NCBI GenBank assembly: GCA_017991895.1
Contig: JAGOPR010000001.1
Coordinates: 13,089-77,088, forward strand
From: Minisyncoccota bacterium
Lineage (GTDB): Bacteria; Patescibacteriota; Minisyncoccia; Phycocordibacterales; UBA9973
Direction: 5' to 3'
DNA length: 64,000 nt
This document shows, piece after piece, positions 23,223 through 64,000 of this stretch. The notes under the pieces are model-generated. The model made no database searches and had not been told where the DNA came from. It saw only the letters and a list, made by a program, of their open reading frames with translations. A program made the translations under genes and the position numbers. Positions within the stretch are counted from its first letter, which is position 1. The number at the start of each line of letters is the position of its first letter.

Positions 23223-24557
23223 TTAGACGGCGGGGTTTGTGATGGTTACTTTTATTCGATCTATGTTTTTCGGGAAAGATCTTTTCCAAAAAGGCTTGAG
23301 AACAACCTGCGCTTTATCTACCCCACTAAATGTAGCTATAAGTGCCTCGAAGTCCGATTTCTTTCTTGAAACCAAAAGACGCTGTATGTTTTCAGGACTT
23401 AAAATCCATAAGATATCAGCCTTTCCATTCAGGCTAAATTGAAAAGGAGCATTATCATCTTCGCTTAAAACTGATCCAGATTTTGGTAACAGAGAAAGTG
23501 ATGCAAGTTTTGGAATACTTACTGGCTCGTCTTTGTACTGGCTAATAGATTGAAGAGCGAGAGCTCGAATTAGTGTATCTTGTTTCAAAAGATACACAGT
23601 CAGCGAACCATTCAAAACCACAGGAACCTCTGATTCTTTTGAGTACGAGACCTGAACTGCTGGATCAGAAATAAATACAGTAGCGCCCTCATAAAAGAGG
23701 TAACCCTCCGGAACCTGTACTCGAGCCTTCGCGATTAGCGAGCCCTTTAGTTTTTCCAGCAATGTTGAGTGGGCTCCGTCCGCAGTACTTTTCTCAATCA
23801 TGTAAACTTTACCAGAAGCCCCTCCAACAAATGGACGTTTTATTTTAGCCGTTATTTTTTGACCTTGAGGCAATTTTGAAAGCTTCTGTATCGATAAATC
23901 TCCACTTTCAATATTCCCTTCCTCTCCAGCAAGTACAGCTTCGGCCCCAACTTCAATTGTACCAGCAGTTACCTTGCCCGCCTTGCTCGTAATATAACCA
24001 GGGATTTTTACAGTTTTTTCGGTTACGTATATTCGTCCGTCACTAGACACGAGAGCTGTGCCTTTTGTTACAGTGTACGTCCCCTTTGTGTAAGTATTTG
24101 AAAGAAGCACCGAGCCTTTAGCACGATCAGATAGTACTTTTGATTGCGACGAAGGCAACCGTAATGTTTCACTTCCTGAGAGCCTCATTACTGTATAAAC
24201 AATACCTGGATCTGTCGTATCCTTTAATGCTGTAAATGTGTCGCTTGTATCATAAACAATCGTCATGACCTTCGGTGTGACGTTTACCGAAGCAGATTCA
24301 AACAAGAAAGAGAGCGATAGGAGTAATCCCACCAAACAGATAACCGCAACATACCATAACGCGTAACGAGGCGAAGATTTTGATGGAACTGGCTCGAAAG
24401 GTATTTCCCGTGGAATCGAGCTTGCGCGAGAAGCATTCTCACGAATCTTCATGGGTGTAACCACGCGAGCGTCACGTGAAAGCGGTTTTATATCTTCAAT
24501 AATATTTTTTCTTATCATTATTTTATTTCTGCTTACGAGCACTAGCCAAAACTTCAA
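23223..24557 (-). CDS. Hypothetical membrane-anchored protein (single N-terminal TM, large extracytoplasmic domain)
   Basis: ORF downstream of the PilM/FtsA-like gene. Confidence 0.4.
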   Translation of the reverse strand: MKFWLVLVSRNKIMIRKNIIEDIKPLSRDARVVTPMKIRENASRASSIPREIPFEPVPSKSSPRYALWYVAVICLVGLLLSLSFLFESASVNVTPKVMTIVYDTSDTFTALKDTTDPGIVYTVMRLSGSETLRLPSSQSKVLSDRAKGSVLLSNTYTKGTYTVTKGTALVSSDGRIYVTEKTVKIPGYITSKAGKVTAGTIEVGAEAVLAGEEGNIESGDLSIQKLSKLPQGQKITAKIKRPFVGGASGKVYMIEKSTADGAHSTLLEKLKGSLIAKARVQVPEGYLFYEGATVFISDPAVQVSYSKESEVPVVLNGSLTVYLLKQDTLIRALALQSISQYKDEPVSIPKLASLSLLPKSGSVLSEDDNAPFQFSLNGKADILWILSPENIQRLLVSRKKSDFEALIATFSGVDKAQVVLKPFWKRSFPKNIDRIKVTITNPAV

Positions 24558-25701
24558 TCATGCTAAAAGGATTACGCGGTACTCCTTCCTCAAAATCTAG
24601 TGCTGTGTGAAAAAAAGTTGCGTCTAATGGGATTATCTTAAATTCTTTCTCGGTCAAAGCATACTGACCAAACTTTTCTGTTTTTATCGCATCAACAAAC
24701 CATGGCCCAACATAACTATCTACTGTAATAAGTATTGTATCAGGAAGTGAGAGTTCATTCGAGGTTGAAAACAAAGCTTTCTGAAAATGTTCCAACCATT
24801 CTTCTTTCGCCTTAGTCAAAATTTTTTCACATGTTTCCTTAATGGAATTTTCAACCTTATTTTCCATGTACAGCATACAAAGAGTTACGGACTCGGGAAT
24901 ACTACGCTTAAGCTCTATACTCAATCGTCTTAACATAAAATTTTTACCTTCAGGAAATGAAGTCGACTGAATAAGAGTACCGTCCTTTACGTATGACACG
25001 TCTGTTACTTCTCCTCCAATATCAACGAGTATGTAGGACTGCTGATGCGGAAAGAAGTCTCTAGAAACTACAAATGATGCGCCGATAAACGACGAAAAGA
25101 TTACTTTTCTGTGACCAAAGTTTACTGAAAGATGGTCTTCTATCTTTTTTAGAATATGCTCTGAGGAAATCGCTAGAAAGATTGAAAGCTCTAGTTCGTG
25201 GGCTATTACTGAAATTGGATCATTGTGTGCGTACCCGTTTAATTTTACCTGTAACGTATTTGACTCAATGACTCGTATAGCTTCATTAGTATGCATTTTC
25301 TTCGTTACTTCCTCATCTTCAAATGCTTTAAGCTCTTTCGCTATTATATCTCCTAGCATTACCTTTGTAACAACAAAAGGCGTGGGTCGAGAAACTTTAG
25401 CCACACGCACCTGCGATGCGTACCATGGTGAGGCAAGGTAAACTTGAATTCTATCCGGCGGTACTCTTTTTTTTCCATGCAGTCCCGATATAGAGTGTTG
25501 GAGGGCTCGCATCATCTCACTTTCAAATCGAGAAAAAGATAAATCTGAGAGGACTGAAATTTCAGAAGTTACCGAAGCAGAAATAATTGGAGTCGCGCCT
25601 CCGAAAACAACATAAGATGCTGTTACAGACGAGCTTCCAATATCAATAACAAGCACGTTCTCTGCCGTATTTTTCTTCTTTAAGAAAGAGAAAATTCCCA
25701 T
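24523..25701 (-). CDS. Actin-like ATPase, PilM/FtsA family
   Basis: N-terminal VLVIDIGSSSV phosphate-1 motif; start moved to the internal ATG (MGIFSF) that sits 6 nt after a TATAAT box. Confidence 0.5.
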   Translation of the reverse strand: MGIFSFLKKKNTAENVLVIDIGSSSVTASYVVFGGATPIISASVTSEISVLSDLSFSRFESEMMRALQHSISGLHGKKRVPPDRIQVYLASPWYASQVRVAKVSRPTPFVVTKVMLGDIIAKELKAFEDEEVTKKMHTNEAIRVIESNTLQVKLNGYAHNDPISVIAHELELSIFLAISSEHILKKIEDHLSVNFGHRKVIFSSFIGASFVVSRDFFPHQQSYILVDIGGEVTDVSYVKDGTLIQSTSFPEGKNFMLRRLSIELKRSIPESVTLCMLYMENKVENSIKETCEKILTKAKEEWLEHFQKALFSTSNELSLPDTILITVDSYVGPWFVDAIKTEKFGQYALTEKEFKIIPLDATFFHTALDFEEGVPRNPFSMIEVLASARKQK

Positions 25702-25744
25702 GCAGATATTATACCTGCACACTTACATTTTTGAAATAGCAAAA

Positions 25745-49106: not shown

Positions 49107-50924
49107 TTACTTCTTATAAATGATTATGACCGGTGGCGGTTTTAATTTTGCCTTTGGTTTATAAACATTTAAAGGTGGCGGTGCCGGATTATCTGAACCT
49201 CCTTCTGGTGGAATAATTTTTAATTTTCCATTCTCCAGAGTAACTTCAGGCAAATCAGATTTCGCATACTTTTCGTCCTCTTCATTTACATATTCCTTTT
49301 TGGTAACCTTACGAGCACCAATTTCTACATTATGTAGAGACTGGTTTACAAATGCTACGGAATCATACTTCCGCTTCAACTCATTAATCACAAAGGCAGT
49401 AGAATCTGCCGTGCGCTTTACCTGTGCGATAGAATCAGTTGTACGTTTAGAGCGTACAGAGTCTGCATAGGCGATTTCGCGAAGCGACTTATTTGTTGAA
49501 TCGGTAACTCGAACGAAAGCAAGTGAGTCAGCATACTTTTCATTTCGTATACTGTCAGCCATTCTTTGTTTAGCAATCTCATTCAAAAGTTGCTCGTTCT
49601 TTACTGCAAGTTGTCTATTAACTTCCGCTAACAATCTTGCATTAGCTTCAGCTTTTTTGGTGATAGAGTCATTCTTGCGTTTTTGCTCATACAACTGAGA
49701 CGCAAGTTGTTTTTCCCTATCTTTCTTTTCATTTACTTTCTGCAATGAATCCAAACGTTTTTGGTTCAACTGTGCAAGAGCTTCCGCTTTTGCATTTTTA
49801 ATTGAATCTAAACGAGCAGTTTTCAATAACTCAAGTAAATTTTTCTGTTTAGCTAATTCGTCCTTTTTCAAGGAGTCTCTAGTCTTAAATTGTTGATTAT
49901 ACCTTCGCGTTCTAGCGAGAGCCGAATCAACCTCGGCTAACAGATTCTGGTCATTTTGTTGCACTTCAGTTTTGTTCAACTCTAATGCTATTTTTTTAGC
50001 ATTTTTTATTGAATCAGCTACCCGCGCACGCTTTTCAGCATTCGCGATTTCCACGGCTAATGCATTCTTTGCGTTCTTTGTGGAGTCTGCAACAAATGCA
50101 ATGCGTGCCTGACGAACTGAATCGGCAGTTTTTACCTTTTGTGTAGAATCACGTACGAATGTGATCCTACGAACAACTGAATCTTTGTACTTAATTGAAT
50201 CGAATTGAGGTGCAAATGCTGGTTCTCCATCTTGAAGAATTTTTACAACAACCTTGCCATCTTTTTTCTTTTCCTCTGTGTACGCTAAAGCAGGAGTTGT
50301 AATTGTCTTTGCTGGGGTAACCAGCTTAGCAAGCTTTCTTCTGACTGATTCATAACCAATCATACTTTTGACTGTTACATCAAACGGGTCATCTTCAATT
50401 GTGGTGTTGTTCCCCTCAATTTTATAGCGACCAAAAAGCTTACTGTTTTTGATCTGATACCAGACCAACCCACCTGATACTTTTCCGTTATAGTACCCAA
50501 CTCGTAAATCGTAGTTGAATACATCCGGATTTTTTGTATTTAGGTAGATGACTTTTATCGAATCACCTGGGTTTGGCCTTGCACTTGGCGAGCACATCGT
50601 TATAAACATGCTATCCAAATGTTTTTGTCGTGTATCACCCATAAATCCATAGAATTTATAGGTGCTGTCGTATACTTCATACGTTTTAGATTCCTTGAGG
50701 TATTTTACGCACGGAAGCGTATCCTCAAAAAACCGTTTACACCATTCGGGCTCGTTGCCCAAATAAAAAGGCATGTTACGAACTTCTATATCCGGATCAT
50801 TAGACCGGCGTAAGTCGTAAGTGTAATAGAAGCCGTAATTTTGCTTCACTTGGCCAAATGAATTTTGGCAGAACACCAGGAACAACACTGGTATTAACGC
50901 GGATAATAAAAGTTGTTTTTTCAT
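49107..50924 (-). CDS. Secreted coiled-coil repeat protein
   Basis: Signal peptide; central tandem ADS(I/V)(K/R)NAK-type repeats; Pro-rich C-terminus. Confidence 0.45.
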   Translation of the reverse strand: MKKQLLLSALIPVLFLVFCQNSFGQVKQNYGFYYTYDLRRSNDPDIEVRNMPFYLGNEPEWCKRFFEDTLPCVKYLKESKTYEVYDSTYKFYGFMGDTRQKHLDSMFITMCSPSARPNPGDSIKVIYLNTKNPDVFNYDLRVGYYNGKVSGGLVWYQIKNSKLFGRYKIEGNNTTIEDDPFDVTVKSMIGYESVRRKLAKLVTPAKTITTPALAYTEEKKKDGKVVVKILQDGEPAFAPQFDSIKYKDSVVRRITFVRDSTQKVKTADSVRQARIAFVADSTKNAKNALAVEIANAEKRARVADSIKNAKKIALELNKTEVQQNDQNLLAEVDSALARTRRYNQQFKTRDSLKKDELAKQKNLLELLKTARLDSIKNAKAEALAQLNQKRLDSLQKVNEKKDREKQLASQLYEQKRKNDSITKKAEANARLLAEVNRQLAVKNEQLLNEIAKQRMADSIRNEKYADSLAFVRVTDSTNKSLREIAYADSVRSKRTTDSIAQVKRTADSTAFVINELKRKYDSVAFVNQSLHNVEIGARKVTKKEYVNEEDEKYAKSDLPEVTLENGKLKIIPPEGGSDNPAPPPLNVYKPKAKLKPPPVIIIYKK

Positions 50925-55082: not shown

Positions 55083-55784
55083 TTACTTTATCTTTTTTAG
55101 TATTTTTGGAATCAGCGAGAAGTCTTTTTTTAAAGTATCTCTCATTCCCCCATTATAGAGTGCTGATGCCGGATGATATAGCGGCAAAAAATATTCTGTT
55201 TCTATAACTCCCGAAACTGAAGCATTTCTTTGTTGCTCACTCGTTTTCTCCTGCGGAGTAGGATTACTACACCTTAGTCGCAAGCCTCGCTCGCGCCTCG
55301 AACTGCATTCAGTTTCGGGGGTTATAGGAGTAGTTTTAAATTTTTTGTGAATAAGCTTGCCGTGCACTTCGGAAATTTTAAGCTCGGGAAAAAAATTATT
55401 CATTGAGTGCCTGCCTAGAAAAACTATTAACTTCGGTTTTATTAAATTAAGTTCTTCGTAGAGCCACGGGGCGCAAGCCTCTTTCTCGCTTGGCATAGGG
55501 TCGCGATTGTCTGGCGGACGATACTTCACAATATTTGTAATATAAACATCTTCCCTTTTCATTCCAATACCATCAAGCATCTCTGAAAGAAACTTACCCG
55601 CTGAGCCGATAAAAGGGACACCTTCCTCATCCTCTTTTTTTCCTGGGGCTTCGCCAATAAATACAATCGAAGCTGTAGCGGGTCCGTCTCCAAAAACCGG
55701 CTGAGTAGCCGTAGCCTTTAAAACACAGGAATTTTCGTTTGCCCATTTAGTATGAAGCTCTATTAGTTCTTCCTGCTTCGTCAT
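55083..55784 (-). CDS. Uracil-DNA glycosylase, family 4
   Basis: GEAPG motif and HPS-like C-terminal motif. Confidence 0.8.
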   Translation of the reverse strand: MTKQEELIELHTKWANENSCVLKATATQPVFGDGPATASIVFIGEAPGKKEDEEGVPFIGSAGKFLSEMLDGIGMKREDVYITNIVKYRPPDNRDPMPSEKEACAPWLYEELNLIKPKLIVFLGRHSMNNFFPELKISEVHGKLIHKKFKTTPITPETECSSRRERGLRLRCSNPTPQEKTSEQQRNASVSGVIETEYFLPLYHPASALYNGGMRDTLKKDFSLIPKILKKIK

Positions 55785-55855
55785 TTGGGTAGTATACTGT
55801 AACTGTATTACTTGTTAAAGCTCTAAGCTAAAAGCTGACAGCTATAAGCTATTTT

Positions 55856-56059
55856 ATGAATAAACACTATGTTTGTAACGGTGGGTGCAACGGAGTTTCA
55901 GATACAGAAGGAGTATGCGGTGCGGAAACTTGTGCAAAACACGGACAGCCACTTCTTGAATGCTCTTGCCAAGATGGCATGCATGAAGGAATTGTAACCC
56001 CATGTGTTGATTGCGGAAATTTGTGCAAGGAAAATAACAGCGAGGGTTGTAAGGCTTAG
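55856..56059 (+). CDS. Small cysteine-rich protein (67 aa, 10 Cys)
   Basis: ORF with a TATAAG box 6 nt upstream and a strong terminator at 56082-56118. Confidence 0.5.
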   Translation: MNKHYVCNGGCNGVSDTEGVCGAETCAKHGQPLLECSCQDGMHEGIVTPCVDCGNLCKENNSEGCKA

Positions 56060-56081
56060 AAGTAAACCAACGCGGAGTAAA

Positions 56082-56118
56082 AAAACCAGCAAGGTCCGAC
56101 CTTGCTGGTTTTTTTACT
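56082..56118. terminator. Bidirectional terminator
   Basis: aaaaaaccagcaaggtc cg accttgctggttttttt. Confidence 0.8.
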
Positions 56119-57634
56119 CTATTATTCTAATCTCATTTGCTATTTTTTCCGTTTCAGAAAAACCTGATTCATTTTTAGCATTTTTATTTATATAAACTTT
56201 GTACAGAACGTAAGAGGCCCCAAGCAAACCAGTAACACCAACAGCCAAAGATACATACAAAGGAATCTCGCTTTTCTCCACGGGTTTACTATTTTCCGCC
56301 GAAGCGACACTTGCCTGCATTTCTATTGGCATAATCGGAGCTGATACTTCTTTTACAGTAATCTTTGTCGAAGGCGAGGATACAGTGGGTGTACTAAAAG
56401 CGACTACTGATTTTTCGATTTTGGGTAACGTAGGATACGTAGAAACAATACTTCCTGATGGCAACACAAGCTGTAACCTAGCAAAGTCGCCGTCAGTGAA
56501 TCCTGTTAAGCTCTTTGATAAAAAAATTGACTTGCCCGAGATAATAAATGTTCCATACGGGATAATAAATTTTTTTGTTCCGCTCGAATTTATTATCCCC
56601 CAATCTGAGATATCTGCTTCACTGTCTGAAGGATTTTTTAATTCAATTGTACCGATATCACTCACTGATGAAATAAAAACATGTGGCTCCACGATTTCAA
56701 TAACTTGTCGTATTTTAATATCTGGTTCACGCAAATATGGGTTAGTTTTATATGTAAACATTGCCAAATATGTACCAGAAAATTCATACTCATGCTTAAA
56801 CGGCTCAAAATAATCCAATTTTTTTACTGTGCCATCTCCAAAAGAAAAATAGAATTCCCCACGCTGTCTAACTTCTCCGGCAAGTCCCGTAACTTTTACT
56901 GATACATCAAAAGGAATACCTGCTACTCCGGTTATAGGCATAGATAGCTCTGCCTTCATTTTTGGAGGCTCATATGCCTTTGGTGTAGTCACGGTCGTAG
57001 TAGACCCTGTCCCACCTCCTTCAGTCGTCGTACCTCCGCCGCCTCCACCGCCACTACCCGTATCCCCTCCACCTCCTCCAGATGATCCACCGCTGTTGCT
57101 AACTCCCGGGGTAGGAACTGCCCCTACCCAAGATGAGCCGACAAGCTGAAGTGAGTTGCCGTCGCCAGCACCTCCTACAGTATTTGTATATGAAACAGTG
57201 TCTACAATATTGCCTGCATCATCAATAATTTTTACATTACCACTCGTATTTCCTAGACTCATAGATGTATCTATAACTGTACCTGAATATCCTGAGTGAT
57301 CTGTCAGAAAAACGTCAGCATTGGAAGCTATAACTGCATACCCATTTACTGGTATTACCATTGTGCCTCGCGTTGCGGTATCTGCAAGTAAATGATTGCT
57401 TCCATCATTAAAACGCCATGTATCCCCGCTTCCGCCGGAAATTGTTACAGCTGTCGTTCCAGTATTCTGAATTTCTATCCACTCGTGATCAGAATCAGAT
57501 CCCGGCGCATCATAAAAAATCTCGCTGATGATGATACCGCCAGAAGCAAGCGTTGTTCCGCGTACGGAAAAAAATAATATGAGAATGAGTAGTAAACTGT
57601 AAACTATTCCGCGATTATTTATTCCACACCACAT
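56114..57634 (-). CDS. Secreted lamin-tail-domain (LTD) protein with Gly-rich linker and C-terminal TM anchor
   Basis: LTD signature IIISEIFYDAPGSDSDHEWIEIQNTG; poly-G/S/T linker; start trimmed to the Met that precedes the signal peptide (alternative start at 57766 would overlap the upstream ATPase). Confidence 0.6.
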   Translation of the reverse strand: MWCGINNRGIVYSLLLILILFFSVRGTTLASGGIIISEIFYDAPGSDSDHEWIEIQNTGTTAVTISGGSGDTWRFNDGSNHLLADTATRGTMVIPVNGYAVIASNADVFLTDHSGYSGTVIDTSMSLGNTSGNVKIIDDAGNIVDTVSYTNTVGGAGDGNSLQLVGSSWVGAVPTPGVSNSGGSSGGGGGDTGSGGGGGGGTTTEGGGTGSTTTVTTPKAYEPPKMKAELSMPITGVAGIPFDVSVKVTGLAGEVRQRGEFYFSFGDGTVKKLDYFEPFKHEYEFSGTYLAMFTYKTNPYLREPDIKIRQVIEIVEPHVFISSVSDIGTIELKNPSDSEADISDWGIINSSGTKKFIIPYGTFIISGKSIFLSKSLTGFTDGDFARLQLVLPSGSIVSTYPTLPKIEKSVVAFSTPTVSSPSTKITVKEVSAPIMPIEMQASVASAENSKPVEKSEIPLYVSLAVGVTGLLGASYVLYKVYINKNAKNESGFSETEKIANEIRIIE

Positions 57635-57644
57635 AGACAGTATA

Positions 57645-59990
57645 TTATTCTGACAATACGTTTCGTAGCACCTCTTCAGGAATTTCTCGTATTTTCTTTT
57701 CGCCAACTGGTTTCTCTTGTTCTGGTTTTTTTTCTTCTTGTATTGGAGGAACTGGTGTGGGTTCAATTTTTACCGGTTCAGGAATTTTTTTCTCTTCTAC
57801 TTTTTGTACATCTCCGACTTTGGGCGCACTATTTGTAGCTTTTGCAATTGCACTAGCGAGCGCTGACATACGTTCTTCTGAAGCCTGCTTTGATGCGAAC
57901 ACTTTTTGAGTAGGAACTACAGATGATTCTGCTTCTGGTTTTTTAAGTGAAGAAAGAGAAATTGTTTGCTTTTCTGGTTCTGGATTTCCGTTTTCTGGTT
58001 TCGTAACGTTAGAATTCTTTTCGTCTTTAATATTTGCACTTTGCATGTTTTTTGAGAGAGCATCTCCAAGAGCTGATTTCAAAATACTCTGAAGACCTTC
58101 GTGATCAGGAGTCGCACGCTCCTTTGCCGGTCGAATATTTTTTGGTCTTGGTTCAGAAACTGGCGTAGATGATGGAGCAGGTACTGGCGAAACAGGAGCT
58201 TGCTGAGTATGAGTCGCCATTGGTTTTGCCACTGACGCAACAGGTCGAACTTGTTGAGGTGGGACACTAGGGATCGAGACCGTAGGACTAGGTCGTGGAG
58301 TGGTAACCGGAGGCGGAACAGTTACGGGCCTCGACATTTGCGGTCGAGACACGAACGCTGGTGGAACTGGTTTCTTCAAAACAGCTGGACTTCGAGTCGG
58401 AGAAAGTTTTGCTGCGTCAGAATCTCCTTCAGGTAAATATTCGATACCGAGACCAGCAAGAGCTGAGTACGATTGTGGCTCGAGAGCCCGAGCACGTGAA
58501 GTACCTTTGACCGGTTTCATTTCCCCGCTCTTAATTTTCGCAATACAGTCCTTACAATACACAGGTCGGCCTTCTTCCGGCTCAAATGGAACAGTAGTTT
58601 CTTTTCCACAAGAAGAACATACGGCTTTAAATTTGCCTGTCTCTTCAAGACCAACAAGCATTCCACTCCAATCATTGATTTCTTTTTCAACAATTTCTTT
58701 CGGACGAGCGTATAGCTTTCGAGACATTTCTATAATCTCTTGAGCAACAGTACTTTCAACGGGGATTTTAAATGGTGTGAGTGTTTTTGCAGAAAAGGGT
58801 CGGCTTGTTACCCCATCTACCATAAGCTTTAGATAGATTGTGTAGTTTGGAAGGTTCACCATGTCTTGCGGTGTAAATTCCGGCTCAAATTCTTGCTCAA
58901 GATATTCGGCATCTGCGGCACCGATGCGGAAAATGATTATCGTTCCAACGTTACCGAAAACAGCATCACGAACTGCCTCAGAATCTTTTGTGACAAGCTG
59001 AGCAATGTATTGGTGAGCGAGAGTGAGGTTTAGGCGGTATTTACGAGCTTCAGAGAGAATACTCGCAAATGCGTCTGTAACGAAGTTTTGGAATTCGTCC
59101 ACATACAAATAGAAATCTTTACGGTCATCTTCAGGAATACGCACGCGCTCCATGGCGGCGAGCTGGAGCTTGGTAATAATCATACCTCCCAAGAGTGCTG
59201 AGTTGTCTTCACCGATACGTCCCTTTGAAACGTTCACGAGAAATATTTTTCCAGTGTTCATCAAACTAAAAAGATCGAGTGTGGATTTTGATTGTCCGAC
59301 AACATTACGCACGATAGAAGTTGATAGGAATTGTCCAACTTTGTTTTGAATCGGAGCGATAGCTTCGTTACGATATTGATCACGCCAGTTTTCATATTCA
59401 TGAACCCAGAAGGCTTTAATCACTGGATCTTTCAAATTATTGATGACTACCTGACGGTAGTCTTTGTCCACAAGAAGACGCGGAATACCAAGGAGTGTAG
59501 AGCCAGGCGTATCAACAAGCGCCAAGATCGCGTTGTTCAAAATATATTCCATACGAGCAGACCACGCGTTTGCCCAAATCTTTGTAAAAATTCCCATCAG
59601 ACCGGACGCCACAAGATGCTTGTAGCGTGGATCGTCGAGCTGAAGCACATTGAAACCGACGTGGTAATCCGCGTCAGCTGGGTTGAAATATATAACATCT
59701 TTTGCACGGTGAGCAGGGATTGTCGCAAGAATTGATTCGACAAGTTCTCCGTGAGGGTCGACAACGCAAACACCTTCGCCGTTCCAGACGTTTTGAACAA
59801 TCATATTTGCTAGAAGCGCAGATTTTCCGGAGCCGGATTTACCCAACAGGTACATGTGTTGCCGGCGATCTTTTCTTTTGATGCCGAAAACTTGTTCGTT
59901 GGCTCGGAAATTCGTCTTTGCCAAATACGTAAGATTTTTATTAAAGGCTATCCCGTCAGGGAGAAAGTCCATATGCCGTATATTATACAA
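57645..59990 (-). CDS. FtsK/HerA-superfamily ATPase (TraD/VirD4/AAA_10-like) with C-terminal zinc ribbon and Pro-rich disordered tail (paralog A)
   Basis: Walker A GKSGSGKS, VVDPHGE, Walker B YLYVDEFQNF; CSSCGKE...YCKDC; long P/S/T/V-rich tail. Confidence 0.6.
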   Translation of the reverse strand: MYNIRHMDFLPDGIAFNKNLTYLAKTNFRANEQVFGIKRKDRRQHMYLLGKSGSGKSALLANMIVQNVWNGEGVCVVDPHGELVESILATIPAHRAKDVIYFNPADADYHVGFNVLQLDDPRYKHLVASGLMGIFTKIWANAWSARMEYILNNAILALVDTPGSTLLGIPRLLVDKDYRQVVINNLKDPVIKAFWVHEYENWRDQYRNEAIAPIQNKVGQFLSTSIVRNVVGQSKSTLDLFSLMNTGKIFLVNVSKGRIGEDNSALLGGMIITKLQLAAMERVRIPEDDRKDFYLYVDEFQNFVTDAFASILSEARKYRLNLTLAHQYIAQLVTKDSEAVRDAVFGNVGTIIIFRIGAADAEYLEQEFEPEFTPQDMVNLPNYTIYLKLMVDGVTSRPFSAKTLTPFKIPVESTVAQEIIEMSRKLYARPKEIVEKEINDWSGMLVGLEETGKFKAVCSSCGKETTVPFEPEEGRPVYCKDCIAKIKSGEMKPVKGTSRARALEPQSYSALAGLGIEYLPEGDSDAAKLSPTRSPAVLKKPVPPAFVSRPQMSRPVTVPPPVTTPRPSPTVSIPSVPPQQVRPVASVAKPMATHTQQAPVSPVPAPSSTPVSEPRPKNIRPAKERATPDHEGLQSILKSALGDALSKNMQSANIKDEKNSNVTKPENGNPEPEKQTISLSSLKKPEAESSVVPTQKVFASKQASEERMSALASAIAKATNSAPKVGDVQKVEEKKIPEPVKIEPTPVPPIQEEKKPEQEKPVGEKKIREIPEEVLRNVLSE

Positions 59991-60026
59991 GCTTTAAAGC
60001 TGTAAAGCTATATAGCTGTTAAGCTT

Positions 60027-61727
60027 TTATAGTACCTCTTTTTGGTAACAGGATTCGCAGTAGACCACCTCAGGGCGTCCTTTTTCATATGGCGTTCTGA
60101 TATCTTTTTTGCAGTTATCACAAGTACGATCAAAGAGTTTAGTTGGCAAAAGCATTTTGTAGCGTTCTTTATGGCGCTCGGCTCCTGCTACTCGCGGAAT
60201 CGGCAAACCTGCTTGGCGATAGAAAGAAAGTTCAGCTGGCACAATACGATACGCTTTTCCAGAAACCTCACACTTTAAAATCATTTTTAGTATATCGTCG
60301 CCGACATCTTTGATATCGTCCGGAATCGTATAGTCAGAAAATTCGTAGTGAGTATCAGAAACATAGTCGCTCCATTTATATCCTTGTGCGAGCGCTTCTT
60401 CTTTTGAAAGCGGAAAAATATCGGGAGCAGTTGTTTCATTGTATCCATAGGAAGAAAATTCTGTTGGAAAAAATTCTCCATATTTATACACTCGCCCCAT
60501 CTTGTCCACATATGGCATATCCTGCATGTGTTTTTTAATTCTAGGTAAAAGCTCGTTATATTCTTCTTTCGTATATTTTTTATTAAGAATCGTATATTCT
60601 GCACCACGAACACAAACGCATCCAAAACAATTACTAACACTTCCTACCATTGTCGAATACTCGACAGTATTGATAGTCACTTTCTTAAGTGGGTCATTCG
60701 AAATGCAGAAAAGCAAAAATTTTGAATCATAGACTCCCCCACTGTGAGCACATTCATACGCGAGCTCGGCAGCGCCAAGGCAACTACAATCATACAAGTC
60801 ACGTGCCCACCCAGTAATAAAGAGATTTTTAGAATTTTCAATCTTTGTGCATTCCCAGACATTATGAGAATTCTTTGCTTCCGAAACTGCGTTACCCGTA
60901 GTGTCTACGGATTTAAAAATAGTATTTTCGCGGTGTGGAGAATTATTCCAAATAGGAACAATCTGCTCCTTCCACCATGAAAGTCCACGGTGAGATGATA
61001 TTGGATGTTCGGACAAAAATTTCTGATATTCCTCTTTTGTATACTGCTCGTTAAAAATACAGTATTGCTTGTTGCGCAGTCCGGCACAACCAATAACATT
61101 GCTACAATTGCGACAGTCATATGAGAGGACTGTATTTAAGGAATCGTGGCATTCATAGGAAAAGTGTGTGAAATAATCTCTCTCGCAGTGCACATTATTT
61201 GAAGAATGATCAGAGTTAAATATCCAATAATTATCGAAGCAGTTTTTGCACTGAACTCCGTATGTACAATATGCACAGTCTTCGTTGTACATCCCTCCTA
61301 CATTCATATAACAATTTTTACTATCATTCTCTTGATTTATCCATTCACTATTTATTGCATTTGAATTCAGTATTGATATTTGTGGAACAGCAAGGAAAAG
61401 CTCGAGCCATTGCTCGAAAAATGGTCGTAAAAAATCATACTCTTTACCGTATGAACACGGGTCCCATTTGTCGCTCCACCAGCATTTTGAACAATACATG
61501 GGGAAAGTCTTATCTGGAGATACACGAGAAACAACACTCGTGCCACACAAATCACAATCACGCTTGTAGAAATTACGTTCGTTACGAAAGGCAAGCCTGC
61601 GCTGAAAACGGCAGTCCGCACAAAACGTTGGAGGTGGAACATTTACCTTCTGGTAAAAGTCAAAGTCCTCTGGCTCAATCGTAAAGTCATTCTTACAGTT
61701 CTGGCAATTTCGGGTTTCGTTTTGCAT
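60027..61727 (-). CDS. Large cysteine-rich multi-zinc-ribbon protein (566 aa), paralog 1
   Basis: N- and C-terminal CxxC..FY..P..CxxCR..Y..CxxC double zinc ribbons; two internal Cys modules each ending in YCIxNxQYTKEEY. Confidence 0.55.
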   Translation of the reverse strand: MQNETRNCQNCKNDFTIEPEDFDFYQKVNVPPPTFCADCRFQRRLAFRNERNFYKRDCDLCGTSVVSRVSPDKTFPMYCSKCWWSDKWDPCSYGKEYDFLRPFFEQWLELFLAVPQISILNSNAINSEWINQENDSKNCYMNVGGMYNEDCAYCTYGVQCKNCFDNYWIFNSDHSSNNVHCERDYFTHFSYECHDSLNTVLSYDCRNCSNVIGCAGLRNKQYCIFNEQYTKEEYQKFLSEHPISSHRGLSWWKEQIVPIWNNSPHRENTIFKSVDTTGNAVSEAKNSHNVWECTKIENSKNLFITGWARDLYDCSCLGAAELAYECAHSGGVYDSKFLLFCISNDPLKKVTINTVEYSTMVGSVSNCFGCVCVRGAEYTILNKKYTKEEYNELLPRIKKHMQDMPYVDKMGRVYKYGEFFPTEFSSYGYNETTAPDIFPLSKEEALAQGYKWSDYVSDTHYEFSDYTIPDDIKDVGDDILKMILKCEVSGKAYRIVPAELSFYRQAGLPIPRVAGAERHKERYKMLLPTKLFDRTCDNCKKDIRTPYEKGRPEVVYCESCYQKEVL

Positions 61728-61764
61728 TTGGATTTTCTATTAACTACTATCTACTAATTACTAA

Positions 61765-63420
61765 CTAGTTAATATTCTGCTTATAACATGCCTCGCAGGC
61801 AATCTTCGTATATCCCCATTCCTTTGGGTAGTACGCACCCACCTCATTATTGCAGTAAATGCAATTATAAGATTCCGCTTTCCACGGAGCCATCGTGCGC
61901 ATACGGTTTTTTGTACGGACATCAAAATGGACACGAGGAAGCGCAATTCCCTTTCGTGAAAGGAATTTGAATTCTTCAGGTGCGATGTTGAATCGCCAGC
62001 CAGTTTCTGGACAAATAAGTGCCTGCTTAGAGATGGTTTCGTCTACTTCCGTAATACTATTTGGCAATTCGCTCGTTGGAATACCGTCTACTTGGCTCTC
62101 AACGTTGTCATTCCAGTACCCGCCTCTAGCAAGTACAAATTCCTTTGTGATTTCTGGCATATAAATCGAAGCCGTAGTGAGATTATAATCACAAAGCCCC
62201 ATGTTATACGGCAAAAACTGCCCATATTCACCATGTGCTTTCATGTCAGCGATTATCTTTTCACGAAGTGCCTCATATTCTTCTTTTGTATATTGCCTAT
62301 TTAAAATACAATATTTTTTCTTTCGAAGCCCAACACATCCAAAACAATATTCAACTTCAAGACACTCATCGAGATATTCTGAATAGCGCCCTTCGCTCCA
62401 TGAGGAATAATGAAGTCCGTACCCTCCAGTGCAACAACTGTCATTTCCGCACACCTCGACTTTCCATGAACCAAGAAGATCAATGCAGTCCTTTGCTTCA
62501 CGTCCACGAAGACAATTCACACAATTTTCTGATTCTTCCCATCCGAAAACGTTCTGGCAATTGTTGCAATCTGCAAGGTATGTTCCTTTCGATGCATAGG
62601 TGTTTAGTGTGAAATTCTCTCGATGCACTGTCTCTTCTCGCAAGATTTCAACATAGCGTGCCTTTAGCTTTTCAAGTCCTGCGTATGAACTCATGTCATA
62701 TTCTTTAAGCTTTTCAAAATATTCTTCTTTTGTGTACTGCACATTTTCGATACAATATTGCGCACCGCGGAGATTCCAACACATCGTACAATTGCTGCAG
62801 TTTCGGCAGTCGTACAAAAATCGTGAGTTCATACAGTCACGGCAATTTCTTGAAAAATAAAGTTCGAAGGAGTGAAAGGAATAGGTACACTCGTAGCAAT
62901 TGTCTAGGGTAAATGCATGGGAGATATCCATCGAATCTTTCGCATCAAAAGAACGATATCCATACAAAAGATTTTCGGAACGAGCAACTGAGCGCGTGAG
63001 GTAACAATTTTTAGAATCCCAGACATCGTCACACCAATCGCAAAGTAAGTTGTTTGTTCCTTGTTGGTGCGGACGTGGTACTTTTTCTTGCAATTCTTTT
63101 AGCTGGTCAAAAAACGGTCGTGACTCGTCATAGTCTTGCCCAAAATCCATGGCATCCCATGCATCGCTCCACCACTCTTTGGAATGGTAAATCGGATAGC
63201 GCACGCTCGCCGGAAGCATCGTTATAAGGCTTTCTCCTGAAAGTGACGATGTAGCTTTACGAAATTTACCGAATGGCCAAAATGCAAACTGCTGTGCCAT
63301 ACGGCAAGAAAAACAATTGAGTGGTATTTCAATTGCTACTTTTTCGTACAAAAGAAACTCAGGGGGTGTGATAGTAAAATCTTTCTTACAGCTCTGGCAT
63401 TGTTTCGTTTCTGTTTGCAT
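61765..63420 (-). CDS. Large cysteine-rich multi-zinc-ribbon protein (551 aa), paralog 2
   Basis: Same architecture and conserved YTKEEY modules as 60027..61727. Confidence 0.55.
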   Translation of the reverse strand: MQTETKQCQSCKKDFTITPPEFLLYEKVAIEIPLNCFSCRMAQQFAFWPFGKFRKATSSLSGESLITMLPASVRYPIYHSKEWWSDAWDAMDFGQDYDESRPFFDQLKELQEKVPRPHQQGTNNLLCDWCDDVWDSKNCYLTRSVARSENLLYGYRSFDAKDSMDISHAFTLDNCYECTYSFHSFELYFSRNCRDCMNSRFLYDCRNCSNCTMCWNLRGAQYCIENVQYTKEEYFEKLKEYDMSSYAGLEKLKARYVEILREETVHRENFTLNTYASKGTYLADCNNCQNVFGWEESENCVNCLRGREAKDCIDLLGSWKVEVCGNDSCCTGGYGLHYSSWSEGRYSEYLDECLEVEYCFGCVGLRKKKYCILNRQYTKEEYEALREKIIADMKAHGEYGQFLPYNMGLCDYNLTTASIYMPEITKEFVLARGGYWNDNVESQVDGIPTSELPNSITEVDETISKQALICPETGWRFNIAPEEFKFLSRKGIALPRVHFDVRTKNRMRTMAPWKAESYNCIYCNNEVGAYYPKEWGYTKIACEACYKQNIN

Positions 63421-63456
63421 AGTATTCTCTATTTACCATTTACTATTTAGTATTTA

Positions 63457-64000
63457 CTAAATAAGCGGTTCGGCGGTTTCTTCCACTTTCGCTGATGCAG
63501 GTGCTCCCCCACCTGACTCGTTTTTACCAGTACGCATAATTGCTGCTTTTTCTTGAGCGCTACGGATAATAGTAGACTCTTCCTCAGCAATCAAGCGCTT
63601 TGCTTCGTCTGCAGAAATTGCAAATTTTCTTCGAGATGCCTCAATTATTTTTTCCCTGTTTGATGGATATGGTGGAGTCATGACCTTCAAAGTCTCAGCA
63701 GAAAATGGGTCGTACGACTCGCCATCAATTGTCATTTTTATATAAAATTCTCCCACACCAAGGTTGATCATGTCTTTCACGTCAAAAATAGGTGCAAACT
63801 CTGGCTTTAGCTTAACTGCGTCATCGCCACCTACACGAAATGAAATCATAGACCCGACGTTTCCGAGCACGGCGGCTTCAACTTTTTCTGGAATCTGCCC
63901 CACGTACTGGTGCGCCATTGTGAGGTTGATAGCGTATTTACGAGCCTCGGAAAGAAGGTTTTCAAAAGTATCGGTCACGACGTTTTGGAACTCGTCTACG
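63457..64000 (-). CDS. FtsK/HerA-superfamily ATPase paralog B (C-terminal part; gene continues beyond the window end)
   Basis: Frame stays open to the window edge and the translation aligns with paralog A (YVDEFQNFVTD..., SEARKY.LNLT.AHQY); no zinc ribbon or Pro-rich tail. Confidence 0.6.
   Translation of the reverse strand, partial: VDEFQNVVTDTFENLLSEARKYAINLTMAHQYVGQIPEKVEAAVLGNVGSMISFRVGGDDAVKLKPEFAPIFDVKDMINLGVGEFYIKMTIDGESYDPFSAETLKVMTPPYPSNREKIIEASRRKFAISADEAKRLIAEEESTIIRSAQEKAAIMRTGKNESGGGAPASAKVEETAEPLI

What the first reader, a model, noticed from the sequence alone, without database searches (positions are those of the whole stretch)
55800..64000. Two-paralog locus: FtsK/HerA-like ATPases bracketing large multi-zinc-ribbon proteins, plus a secreted LTD protein and a 10-Cys peptide
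On the minus strand the order is: ATPase B (partial, runs off the window end), Cys-rich protein (551 aa), Cys-rich protein (566 aa), ATPase A (781 aa), lamin-tail-domain protein. Divergently at 55856 there is a 67-aa 10-Cys peptide. The two ATPases are clear paralogs: Walker A GKSGSGKS, VVDPHGE, Walker B hhhhDEFQNF, and a shared 'SEARKYxLNLTxAHQY' block. These features are characteristic of the VirD4/TraD/AAA_10 branch of the FtsK-HerA superfamily, i.e. DNA or substrate translocases. Only paralog A adds a C-terminal zinc ribbon and a ~250-aa Pro/Ser/Thr/Val-rich tail. The two Cys-rich proteins are also paralogs and match no family I can name. Gene spacing is tight (36-37 bp gaps that carry repeated leader motifs), consistent with one operon. 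An ATPase-plus-metalloprotein cassette duplicated in place, next to an LTD surface protein, looks like an undescribed export, DNA-uptake or surface-assembly system rather than housekeeping.
Basis: partly seen in the sequence, partly recalled or inferred. Interest (0 to 1): 0.85.

Follow-up and report, generated by a model that had tools for sequence, protein, structure and literature searches.

The report
Orphan coupling-protein ATPases with zinc-protein arrays
A small-genome Paceibacteria bacterium carries an operon joining two old copies of a conjugation-type motor ATPase to two members of a very large, uncharacterised family of cysteine-rich zinc proteins; this pairing recurs across the group, so it looks like a real machine whose job is still unknown.

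Summary
The genes are real. On the minus strand, ATPase B (only its last 180 aa are in the window), a 551-aa and a 566-aa Cys-rich protein, ATPase A (775 aa) and a membrane-anchored LTD-PKD-LTD protein form one tightly spaced unit that ends at a bidirectional terminator.

A and B are soluble VirD4/TraD/TrwB-like ATPases with no membrane anchor, 44% identical. They are not a local duplication. They are two ancient orthogroups, and B is about 78% identical across Paceibacteria.

The Cys-rich proteins belong to a family of at least 2,144 clusters at 50% identity. Members are uniformly 545-600 aa, all are annotated 'hypothetical', and they occur in tandem arrays of 1-9 genes. They have terminal zinc ribbons and a CxxC-laddered beta-solenoid core, and no solved structure is close.

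The pairing is conserved. 37% of Cys-seeded loci (51% of those at least 18 kb long) hold an ATPase, nearly always on the same strand.

The function remains inferred. My best reading is a membrane-docked coupling-protein-like motor that uses the zinc proteins as adaptors or cargo. The 10-Cys peptide is an unrelated neighbour.

The parts
63457..64000 (-). C-terminal 180 aa of ATPase B. The full gene is 490 aa (NCBI MBP6884272, 'DUF87 domain-containing protein'). It is a soluble T4CP-like P-loop ATPase that ends in the conserved ...EPLI-COOH tail.
   Evidence: Translation. Full gene from L001:6799-8271. Pfam DUF87, T4SS-DNA_transf, TrwB_AAD_bind and TraG-D_C. About 78% identical to orthologs in other Paceibacteria. 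Tail motif. No TM segment.
61765..63420 (-). Cys-rich paralog of 551 aa with 34 Cys. It has an N-terminal zinc ribbon (the second ribbon is lost), a CxxC-laddered core built from two repeated modules, and a C-terminal CxxC-x18-CxxC ribbon.
   Evidence: No Pfam, NCBIfam or PADLOC family. Exact match to NCBI MBP6884271, annotated 'hypothetical'.
60027..61727 (-). Cys-rich paralog of 566 aa with 33 Cys. It has two N-terminal zinc ribbons (C8/11/36/39 and C58/61/79/82), a beta-solenoid-like core made of two duplicated modules each ending in YCI(L/F)NxxYTKEEY, and a C-terminal CxxC-x17-CxxC ribbon (C536/539/557/560).
58653..59972 (-). ATPase A, motor domain (about aa 1-440 of 775). Walker A GKSGSGKS, VVDPHGE, Walker B YLYVDEFQNF, SEARKYRLNLTLAHQY. 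No membrane anchor.
   Evidence: Pfam TrwB_AAD_bind 49.3 bits, T4SS-DNA_transf 36.4, TraG-D_C 30.6 and DUF87 30.3, all above their cut-offs. phrog_5156 E 5.9e-58. Best PDB profile match is TrwB at 8e-6. No TM segment.
58536..58631 (-). ATPase A zinc ribbon, CxxC-x17-CxxC (zf_Tbcl_2 / TIGR04272). It is the same domain type as the C-terminus of the Cys-rich proteins.
   Evidence: Pfam E 4.5e-16. NCBIfam E 1.7e-16. Present at about residue 450-470 in nearly all A-type orthologs and in no B-type. This domain binds zinc experimentally in M. mazei small proteins (PMC12704099).
57645..58502 (-). ATPase A low-complexity tail of about 285 aa (P/S/V/K/E/A-rich). It ends in the conserved peptide REIPEEVLRNVLSE-COOH.
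   Evidence: Composition. The terminal motif [KR]E[VI]PEDVL[RK]K[IV]LE is conserved in A-type orthologs although the linkers vary.
56114..57634 (-). Last gene of the unit: a 506-aa LTD-PKD-LTD protein with an N-terminal signal or anchor segment and a C-terminal TM anchor.
   Evidence: Pfam LTD, two stretches. Hydropathy. Homologs lie directly downstream of A- or X-type ATPases in L121, L145, L156, L173, L174 and L175.
56074..56120 (.). Bidirectional intrinsic-terminator hairpin (20-bp stem flanked by A7 and T7). It closes the minus-strand operon and also the plus-strand 67-aa gene.
   Evidence: No terminator-like site falls in any intergenic gap inside the operon.

Best explanation
The locus is one operon of a Paceibacteria-specific system built around two anciently diverged, soluble, coupling-protein-like (VirD4/TraD/TrwB-family) P-loop ATPases.

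Inferred mechanism:
- A and B assemble as ring translocases.
- They are brought to the membrane in trans by DUF8128, which has two TM helices plus a VirB4-N-terminal-domain fold. In other genomes DUF8128 is encoded next to the ATPases. In a Bacillus plasmid protein and a phage G protein it is fused to them.
- The ATPases use tethered recognition elements to engage the tandemly encoded 550-600-aa zinc proteins. These elements are A's CxxC-x17-CxxC ribbon and the conserved C-terminal peptides on flexible linkers.
- The zinc proteins act as specificity adaptors or scaffolds, or possibly as cargo. This is analogous to the adaptor sets bound by the tails of other coupling proteins.
- The final substrate, nucleic acid or protein, is unknown.
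- In this clade the co-transcribed surface LTD-PKD-LTD protein would be the extracellular partner.

Shown: gene structure, homologies, folds and the conserved linkage. Inferred: oligomeric state, membrane docking in this genome, adaptor role and substrate.
For: - ATPase family assignment above Pfam cut-offs.
- No TM segment in A, B or the Cys-rich proteins.
- A and B are distinct orthogroups. B is about 78% identical across genomes.
- Linkage, seeded on Cys-rich genes: 29/79 loci hold an ATPase, and 18/35 of loci at least 18 kb long. 26 of 42 ATPases lie within 300 bp of a Cys gene and 41/42 are on the same strand. Chance expectation is about 3-4%, assuming about 2 T4CP homologs per roughly 1-Mb CPR genome (preprint 10.1101/2025.01.22.634366).
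- Linkage, seeded on ATPases: a Cys gene is present for 13/27 B-type and 11/29 A-type loci.
- The adjacency survives at least three different gene orders.
- ATPases with the EP[LM]I or PEDVLRKILE tails have a Cys neighbour in 24/33 cases. Those with other tails do so in 3/56.
- A and the Cys-rich proteins share the same zinc-ribbon type.
- DUF8128 and the ATPase hit the two halves of phrog_5156. hhalign of DUF8128 against the fused Bacillus plasmid protein and phage G gp156 gives 95% and 88% probability.
- The fused plasmid protein sits next to a Replic_Relax gene and a true VirB4.
- A single terminator follows the LTD gene.
Against: - No DUF8128, p185 or HARE-HTH partner occurs in the 71.7 kb available from this genome.
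- About half of the long Cys-seeded loci have no ATPase, and arrays of 6-9 Cys genes occur without one.
- The tail-motif correlation is confounded by shared ancestry.
- No relaxase, VirB6, pilin or other channel component is nearby.
- No physical interaction was or could be tested.
- Folded zinc proteins are poor candidates for export through a narrow channel.
- In Southlakia the T4CP homolog was reported as non-essential.
Confidence: 0.45

Rival explanations
1. Secretion system with the Cys-rich proteins as cargo. The ATPases, together with DUF8128 and small TM proteins, would export the signal-less Cys-rich beta-solenoid proteins to the surface. There they would act as fibre subunits or host-contact proteins, in the way T7SS EccC/EssC ATPases sit next to arrays of their substrates.
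For: - Tandem arrays of 1-9 paralogs with conserved termini and a variable core.
- No signal peptide or TM segment.
- Weak fold matches to the fibre-forming or Cys-braced beta-solenoids CsgA and budworm antifreeze protein.
- TM proteins DUF8128, p185 and p66 are encoded alongside in other genomes.
- A surface LTD protein is encoded in the same operon.
Against: - Four-Cys zinc ribbons are typical of cytoplasmic proteins.
- Orthologs are 50-78% identical across distant genomes, unlike exposed or effector proteins.
- No channel-forming component was identified.
- No C-terminal unstructured signal exists, because the proteins end right after the ribbon.
Confidence: 0.2
2. A proteostasis or metal-handling module. 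The ATPases would act as unfoldases or remodelling rings and the Cys-rich proteins as zinc-rich co-chaperones or a metal buffer, working with DnaK/DnaJ and CutA1.
For: - In at least 10 loci of one clade the order is DnaK-A-Cys-Cys-B-DnaJ on one strand. The module therefore sits inside the dnaK-dnaJ unit (Pfam).
- CutA1 lies next to B in several clades.
- Each protein has 27-39 Cys.
Against: - The DnaK/DnaJ embedding is confined to one clade with otherwise identical synteny, so it is effectively one evolutionary event.
- In this window DnaK is 47 kb away at 8804-10711.
- T4CP-family ATPases are not known as general unfoldases (established knowledge).
Confidence: 0.12
3. No functional link. The ATPases would work only with DUF8128, for example as a DNA translocase. 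The Cys-rich arrays would be an independently expanding family that happens to sit in the same conserved neighbourhood.
For: - DUF8128 and the HARE-HTH/sigma70_r4 protein are the partners that persist in divergent CPR ATPase loci, where Cys genes are absent.
- Many Cys arrays lack an ATPase.
Against: - The adjacency is kept through several rearranged contexts. Spacing is tight, strands agree in 41/42 cases, Cys genes are interleaved between A and B, and A shares its ribbon domain with the Cys-rich proteins.
Confidence: 0.15
4. A mobile-element or defence reading. The locus would be a remnant conjugative element, or an anti-phage system built on a HerA/MADS-type ATPase.
For: - PADLOC mad8 E 1.2e-13 and HerA hits for the ATPase.
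- Plasmid and phage homologs exist.
Against: - The PADLOC hits involve only the ATPase. No other defence or conjugation component is present.
- The flanks are housekeeping genes and base composition is uniform.
- B is about 78% conserved and inherited with stable synteny.
- No Cys-rich relatives occur in viral contigs.
Confidence: 0.04

Closest known systems
Type IV coupling proteins (VirD4 / TrwB / TraD; Pfam TrwB_AAD_bind, T4SS-DNA_transf, TraG-D_C)
   Same: The P-loop motor domain scores above Pfam cut-offs for these families. The best PDB sequence relative is TrwB. The C-terminal tails with a conserved end-peptide recall the TraD tail that binds TraM (established knowledge; tails).
   Different: There is no N-terminal membrane anchor. 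No relaxase or T4SS genes are nearby. Scores fall far below NCBIfam equivalog cut-offs, 51 versus 366 bits. There are two conserved chromosomal paralogs, one with a zinc ribbon. B is conserved at about 78%, which is atypical for T4CPs.
VirB4 / TrwK, including VirB3-VirB4 fusions
   Different: The architecture is split into two genes. The ATPase half scores as T4CP-like rather than AAA_10, at 18.4 bits against a 27.5 cut-off. DUF8128 is not in this window.
Fused DUF8128-ATPase proteins: phrog_5156, Bacillus phage G gp156 (825 aa), and B. subtilis plasmid WP_121549396 (886 aa, 'DUF87')
   Same: Both halves are homologous. The plasmid protein occupies the coupling-protein position beside a Replic_Relax gene and Tcp-like transfer genes that include a true VirB4.
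   Different: These are single polypeptides on mobile elements. They have no Cys-rich partner genes, no zinc ribbon, and only 21-28% identity.
Legionella DotL coupling complex with adaptors, including zinc-binding DotN (analogy from established knowledge)
   Same: A T4CP with a C-terminal extension that recruits dedicated adaptor proteins. DotL appears among the weak PDB hits, E 7e-4.
   Different: There is no sequence or fold relation between DotN/IcmSW and the Cys-rich family. The adaptor role here is an inference only.
Cys-braced or stacked beta-solenoids (spruce budworm antifreeze protein, curli CsgA, left-handed beta-helix enzymes)
   Same: These are the only fold matches for the central region. 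That region carries a regular ladder of CxxC pairs.

Membership tests
T4CP (VirD4/TraD/TrwB) | TrwB/VirD4-type P-loop nucleotide-binding domain with Walker A/B | tested here: met
   For A: TrwB_AAD_bind 49.3 bits (cut-off 20.5), T4SS-DNA_transf 36.4 (20.1) and TraG-D_C 30.6 (22). B is similar. The motifs are visible in the sequence.
T4CP (VirD4/TraD/TrwB) | N-terminal transmembrane anchor | tested here: not met
   No hydrophobic 19-mer reaches 1.6 in A (maximum 1.36) or B (maximum 1.02). Walker A begins within the first 45-70 residues.
T4CP (VirD4/TraD/TrwB) | Genomic association with a relaxase and/or T4SS mating-pair genes | tested here: not met
   None is present in L001 or among the window ORFs scanned. 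The preprint reports that only 148 of 5,713 CPR T4CP homologs lie near virB4.
T4CP (VirD4/TraD/TrwB) | Curated equivalog or subfamily score (NCBIfam TraD/VirD4 models) | tested here: not met
   The best hit is SXT_TraD at 51.4 bits against a cut-off of 366. conju_CD1115 scores 42 against 250.
VirB4 | AAA_10 / VirB4_CagE ATPase domain | tested here: not met
   AAA_10 scores 18.4 bits against a cut-off of 27.5. TIGR00929 has E 0.054.
VirB4 | VirB4 N-terminal domain | tested here: inconclusive
   [not shown]
FtsK/SpoIIIE | FtsK_SpoIIIE motor domain, membrane domain and gamma domain | tested here: not met
   FtsK_SpoIIIE scores 12.5 bits against a cut-off of 24, E 0.099, and only at the P-loop. 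No TM segment is present.
HerA | HerA central domain (DUF87) plus a NurA partner or equivalog score | tested here: inconclusive
   DUF87 scores 30.3 bits against a cut-off of 23.2. The HerA equivalog scores 12 bits against 970. No NurA-like neighbour is present.
CxxC-x17-CxxC zinc ribbon (zf_Tbcl_2 / TIGR04272) | Profile match above cut-off with four spaced Cys | tested here: met
   ATPase A scores 58.7 bits against a cut-off of 27 and 59.7 against 36. For Cys566 the spacing is present but the score is sub-threshold, 17.3 bits.
Lamin tail domain proteins | LTD profile match | tested here: met
   72.4 bits against a cut-off of 34.3, in two stretches. Orthologs show an LTD-PKD-LTD arrangement.
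Any curated family for the Cys-rich proteins | Significant hit in Pfam, NCBIfam, PADLOC, PHROGs, PDB sequences or PDB folds | tested here: not met
   [not shown]

The most novel reading that the evidence does not exclude
Paceibacteria have turned a split VirB4/coupling-protein ATPase (DUF8128 plus A and B) into a lineage-specific, chromosomally fixed apparatus. Its clients are a very large, previously undescribed family of zinc-stapled beta-solenoid proteins. This would be a new kind of ATPase-driven assembly or export machine, or nucleic-acid handling machine. Its client family can take up a percent or more of these tiny genomes.
Probability: 0.25. Interest if true: 0.85.

Novelty: new variant of a known kind. 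Interest (0 to 1): 0.62.

Why it matters
CPR/Patescibacteria genomes are tiny, yet this lineage keeps two coupling-protein-like ATPases under very strong constraint, with B about 78% identical across genomes. It also keeps up to nine or more 1.7-kb paralogs of a protein family that nobody has named.

A recent survey counted 5,713 'VirD4-like' genes in 2,918 CPR genomes. It noted that almost none sit near a type IV secretion system, so they may have been exapted for another function.

This analysis gives those orphans concrete, testable partners:
- a VirB4-N-domain-like membrane protein, DUF8128;
- a family of at least 2,144 clusters of cysteine-laddered zinc proteins.

It also links them to fused homologs in the coupling-protein position of a Bacillus plasmid. 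If the partnership is real, it defines a new branch of the VirB4/T4CP machinery. It would also be a candidate for how these symbionts move DNA or proteins.

Tried and rejected
- FtsK cell-division reading: rejected. The Pfam score is below cut-off, and there is no TM or gamma domain.
- 'Cassette duplicated in place': rejected. A and B are reciprocal orthogroups.
- Defence system: only ATPase-level PADLOC hits, and the context is core housekeeping.
- Mobile element: no integrase or relaxase, uniform GC, stable synteny.
- 10-Cys peptide as part of the system: rejected. It has four homologs and co-travels with UDG. No copy occurs in 165 other loci.
- PDB sequence searches with B alone and with the Cys-rich profile found nothing useful.
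- Foldseek against PDB for the Cys-rich model found nothing.
- The afdb50 library was not available.
- No Cys-rich relatives in viral contigs.
- Rfam found nothing above threshold in the intergenic leaders.
- Literature searches for DUF8128, and for Parcubacteria Cys-rich paralogs, returned nothing.
- The local Pfam copy lacks PF26449, so DUF8128 gave no hit there.
- Walking further along the source contig to look for DUF8128 was not possible under the look-up restrictions.
- AlphaFold-multimer could not be run.

Full report
**1. Observation**

The window is a Paceibacteria (CPR/Patescibacteria) chromosome segment. The 566-aa protein is an exact match to KBC17_00415 of a Candidatus Pacebacteria MAG, GCA_020049755.1, on a 122,961-bp contig.

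The rest of the window is housekeeping. It includes tRNA synthetases, LepA, MurJ, RpoA, Obg and DnaK at 8804-10711.

On the minus strand, in transcription order:

| Gene | Coordinates | Size |
|---|---|---|
| ATPase B (cut by the window end) | 63457-63999 | last 180 aa only |
| Cys551 | 61765-63420 | 551 aa |
| Cys566 | 60027-61727 | 566 aa |
| ATPase A | 57645-59972 | 775 aa from the ATG; a TTG at 59990 would give 781 |
| LTD protein | 56114-57634 | 506 aa as called in the source record |

Other points on the observation:
- The gaps between genes are 36, 37, 54 (or 36) and 10 bp.
- The only terminator-like site at a gene boundary is a 20-bp-stem bidirectional hairpin at 56074-56120, after the LTD gene. 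One five-gene transcription unit is therefore the simplest reading.
In the full gene (L001:6799-8271, 490 aa) they read GKSGVGKS and VIDPHGE.
- Paralogy is real. A versus B is 44% identical over 414 aa. Cys566 versus Cys551 is 34% identical, E 1e-92, end to end.

**2. The ATPases**

A scores above the Pfam cut-offs for four families: TrwB_AAD_bind (49.3 bits), T4SS-DNA_transf (36.4), TraG-D_C (30.6) and DUF87 (30.3). B behaves the same way.

Several alternative assignments fail:
- AAA_10 (18.4 bits) and FtsK_SpoIIIE (12.5 bits) are below their cut-offs.
- NCBIfam equivalog cut-offs for TraD and VirD4 are missed by a wide margin.
- A profile of A- and B-type sequences finds TrwB (8e-6), then HerA and DotL, in the PDB, but only around the P-loop.

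Neither ATPase has a hydrophobic segment. They are soluble and lack the membrane anchor that defines canonical coupling proteins. NCBI calls A a 'type IV secretion system DNA-binding domain-containing protein' and B a 'DUF87 domain-containing protein'.

A and B are not a recent duplication:
- In 80-odd related loci, every ATPase of this lineage falls cleanly into an A-type or a B-type. A-types score about E 1e-260 to A versus 1e-125 to B, and B-types show the reverse.
- B is about 78% identical to orthologs in genomes whose Cys-rich orthologs are only about 55% identical.
- Nearly all A-types are 620-830 aa and carry a CxxC-x17-CxxC ribbon at about residue 450-470. No B-type carries one.
- Both types end in conserved peptides after variable low-complexity linkers. 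B ends in ...EP[LM]I-COOH. A ends in [KR]E[VI]PEDVL[RK]K[IV]LE.

**3. The Cys-rich proteins**

The word-indexed search hit its ceiling: 7,854 of 8,000 candidates scored E no higher than 1e-3. All hits are from Patescibacteria and all are 'hypothetical' or unnamed.

An exhaustive profile search found 4,958 clusters at 50% identity with E no higher than 1e-3, and 2,144 with E no higher than 1e-30. The listed members are nearly all full length, 545-600 aa.

No Pfam, NCBIfam, PADLOC or PHROG family matches above threshold.

Structure and sequence features:
- The alignment shows invariant Cys quartets for an N-terminal ribbon (C8/11/36/39), a second ribbon (C58/61/79/82, lost in Cys551) and a C-terminal ribbon (C536/539/557/560). 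Further conserved CxxC pairs lie in the core.
- Each protein has 27-39 Cys.
- The core is an internal duplication. A 41-nt stretch encoding YCI(L)NxxYTKEEY occurs twice in each gene, 78-83% identical at the DNA level.
- The AF2 model is confident overall (pLDDT 82, pTM 0.86) but weak in the two solenoid stretches.
- Foldseek against the PDB returns nothing.
- The CxxC-x17-CxxC domain type binds zinc experimentally in Methanosarcina small proteins (PMC12704099).

**4. Is the pairing conserved?**

Yes, but it is not obligatory.

*Loci seeded on the Cys-rich family* (79 loci from species-representative genomes, mean length 15.8 kb):
- They hold 1-9 Cys genes each.
- 29/79 contain an A-, B- or related ATPase, and 18/35 of those at least 18 kb long do.
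- Of 42 ATPases, 26 lie within 300 bp of a Cys gene and 41 are on the same strand.
- About two T4CP homologs occur per CPR genome and genomes are near 1 Mb. The chance expectation for a locus of that size is therefore about 3-4% (inference).

*Loci seeded on the ATPase* (80 metagenome loci):
- 13/27 B-type and 11/29 A-type loci hold a Cys gene, but only 5/43 of the more divergent ATPase loci do.
- ATPases with the EP[LM]I or PEDVLRKILE tails have a Cys gene within 3 kb in 24/33 cases. Those with other tails have a Cys gene in the locus in 3/56 cases. This correlation is confounded by clade.

*The adjacency persists through at least three different arrangements*:
- DnaK-A-Cys-Cys-B-DnaJ
- HARE-HTH / DUF8128 / p185 / B / CutA1 / Cys...
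- B-Cys-Cys-A-LTD, the arrangement of the window clade.

Large arrays without any ATPase also exist (L024, L045, L065).

**5. The wider partner: DUF8128**

In divergent CPR loci the conserved neighbours of the ATPase are a HARE-HTH/sigma70_r4 protein (25/80 loci), DUF8128, and often a small TM protein, p185. These sit between SecDF and PGK/DHH/RNase H/MurJ.

DUF8128 and the ATPase are two halves of one protein elsewhere:
- phrog_5156 (824 positions) is hit by DUF8128 at positions 74-215 and by A and B at about 400-810.
- The fused forms are Bacillus phage G gp156, which lies next to a VirB-like gp155, and an 886-aa 'DUF87' protein of a B. subtilis plasmid.
- hhalign links DUF8128 to their N-termini at 95% and 88% probability.
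- On the plasmid, the fused protein lies immediately upstream of a Replic_Relax gene and Tcp-like transfer genes, including a genuine VirB4 (AAA_10, 389 bits). That is the coupling-protein position.

The CPR ATPases are therefore best described as the motor half of a split T4CP that has a VirB4-type N-domain. Neither DUF8128, p185 nor the HARE-HTH protein is present in the 71.7 kb available from this genome.

**6. LTD protein and 10-Cys peptide**

The LTD protein has hydrophobic segments at both ends. LTD-PKD-LTD homologs lie directly after A-type or related ATPases in L121, L145, L156, L173, L174 and L175. The link is recurrent but restricted to certain clades.

The 67-aa 10-Cys ORF is a real, narrowly distributed gene with four homologs at 65-72% identity. 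It stays beside the UDG gene when that gene is separated from the ATPase locus. I treat it as a bystander.

**7. Mechanism**

Shown:
- an operon-like unit;
- two soluble T4CP-like ATPases of ancient origin;
- a zinc-ribbon domain shared between A and the Cys-rich proteins;
- conserved linkage of the ATPases with the Cys-rich family;
- a VirB4-NTD-like membrane partner in related genomes.

Inferred: A and B form rings that dock on DUF8128 at the membrane. Through their tethered end-peptides and A's ribbon, they engage the Cys-rich proteins.

I favour an adaptor or scaffold role for the Cys-rich proteins over exported cargo, for three reasons:
- they carry several four-Cys ribbons;
- they have no signal peptide or terminal disordered signal;
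- each paralog lineage is strongly conserved (50-78% identity across genomes).

The transported substrate is open.
- DNA is suggested by the family's ancestry, the conserved HARE-HTH/sigma-4 neighbour and the plasmid homolog beside a relaxase-like gene.
- Protein is suggested by the paralog arrays and by the embedding within dnaK-dnaJ.

**8. Comparison and novelty**

The ATPases fail the membership tests for canonical T4CP (no anchor, no relaxase or T4SS context), VirB4 (AAA_10 below cut-off) and FtsK. They work like, and descend from, the VirB4/T4CP stock.

A 2025 preprint already noted that CPR genomes hold thousands of orphan VirD4-like genes that may have been exapted.

I found no description of the following in the searched literature:
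- the split VirB4-NTD partner;
- the fused plasmid and phage homologs as the reference point;
- the A/B orthogroup structure with tail motifs;
- the association with a very large, unnamed zinc-protein family.

I rate the finding as a new variant of a known kind, with a truly uncharacterised partner family.

Noticed in passing
L017, L027, L034, L048, L064, L082, L083, L087 (for example L034, whole locus): In one Nomurabacteria-like clade the module sits inside the chaperone unit: DnaK - ATPase A - Cys - Cys - ATPase B - DnaJ - (Cys) - a 196-aa protein, all on one strand. This may hint at heat-shock co-regulation or a chaperone link.
   Followed up: partly
L006:3633-4190 (p185), between DUF8128 and ATPase B: This small TM protein has a C-terminal helical domain containing 'HKIRNELVH'. 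That is an RNxxxH motif like the one in HEPN RNase domains. It has no Pfam hit.
   Followed up: no
L157:6346-7383 and 24 other loci, directly upstream of DUF8128: A protein of about 345 aa combines Sigma70_r4, a winged-helix-like segment, HARE-HTH and DUF3320. It is the most constant neighbour of the DUF8128-ATPase pair across divergent CPR. It may be a DNA-binding accessory or regulator.
   Followed up: partly
L169 (Bacillus phage G 90859-93336 and 89194-90843): The giant phage G encodes a fused DUF8128-like/ATPase protein, gp156, annotated 'MsbA-like'. It lies next to gp155, a VirB4/TraG-like P-loop protein. SPO1-like Bacillus phages carry related ATPases. Why phages carry these is unexplained.
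   Followed up: partly
window 60558-60598, 61026-61066, 62275-62315, 62719-62759: A 41-nt stretch is repeated four times at 78-83% identity, twice in each Cys-rich gene. It encodes the YCI(L)NxxYTKEEY motif. Conservation at the nucleotide level is striking for paralogs that are only 34% identical overall.
   Followed up: partly
window 49107-50924 (-): A 605-aa protein with a signal peptide, a long charged repetitive region (ADS[IV]/KNAK-type repeats, probably coiled coil) and a proline-rich C-terminus. It has no Pfam hit.
   Followed up: no
window 55083-55784 (-): The family-4-type uracil-DNA glycosylase appears to carry an insertion of about 45 aa (around residues 150-195, 'TPETECSSRRERGLRLRCSNPTPQEK...'). 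Pfam aligns 185 residues of the protein to 129 profile positions.
   Followed up: no
window 23223-24557 and 24523-25722 (-): Two adjacent ORFs, 444 aa with no Pfam hit and 399 aa with only a sub-threshold FtsA-like hit. Together they may be an actin-like or PilM-like pair.
   Followed up: no
[not shown]
   Followed up: no
L119, L122, L129, L146: Divergent CPR loci carry two large ATPase paralogs of this family (about 830 and 920-1060 aa), separated by a protein of about 170-190 aa. There are no Cys-rich genes. This looks like another variant of the two-ATPase arrangement.
   Followed up: no
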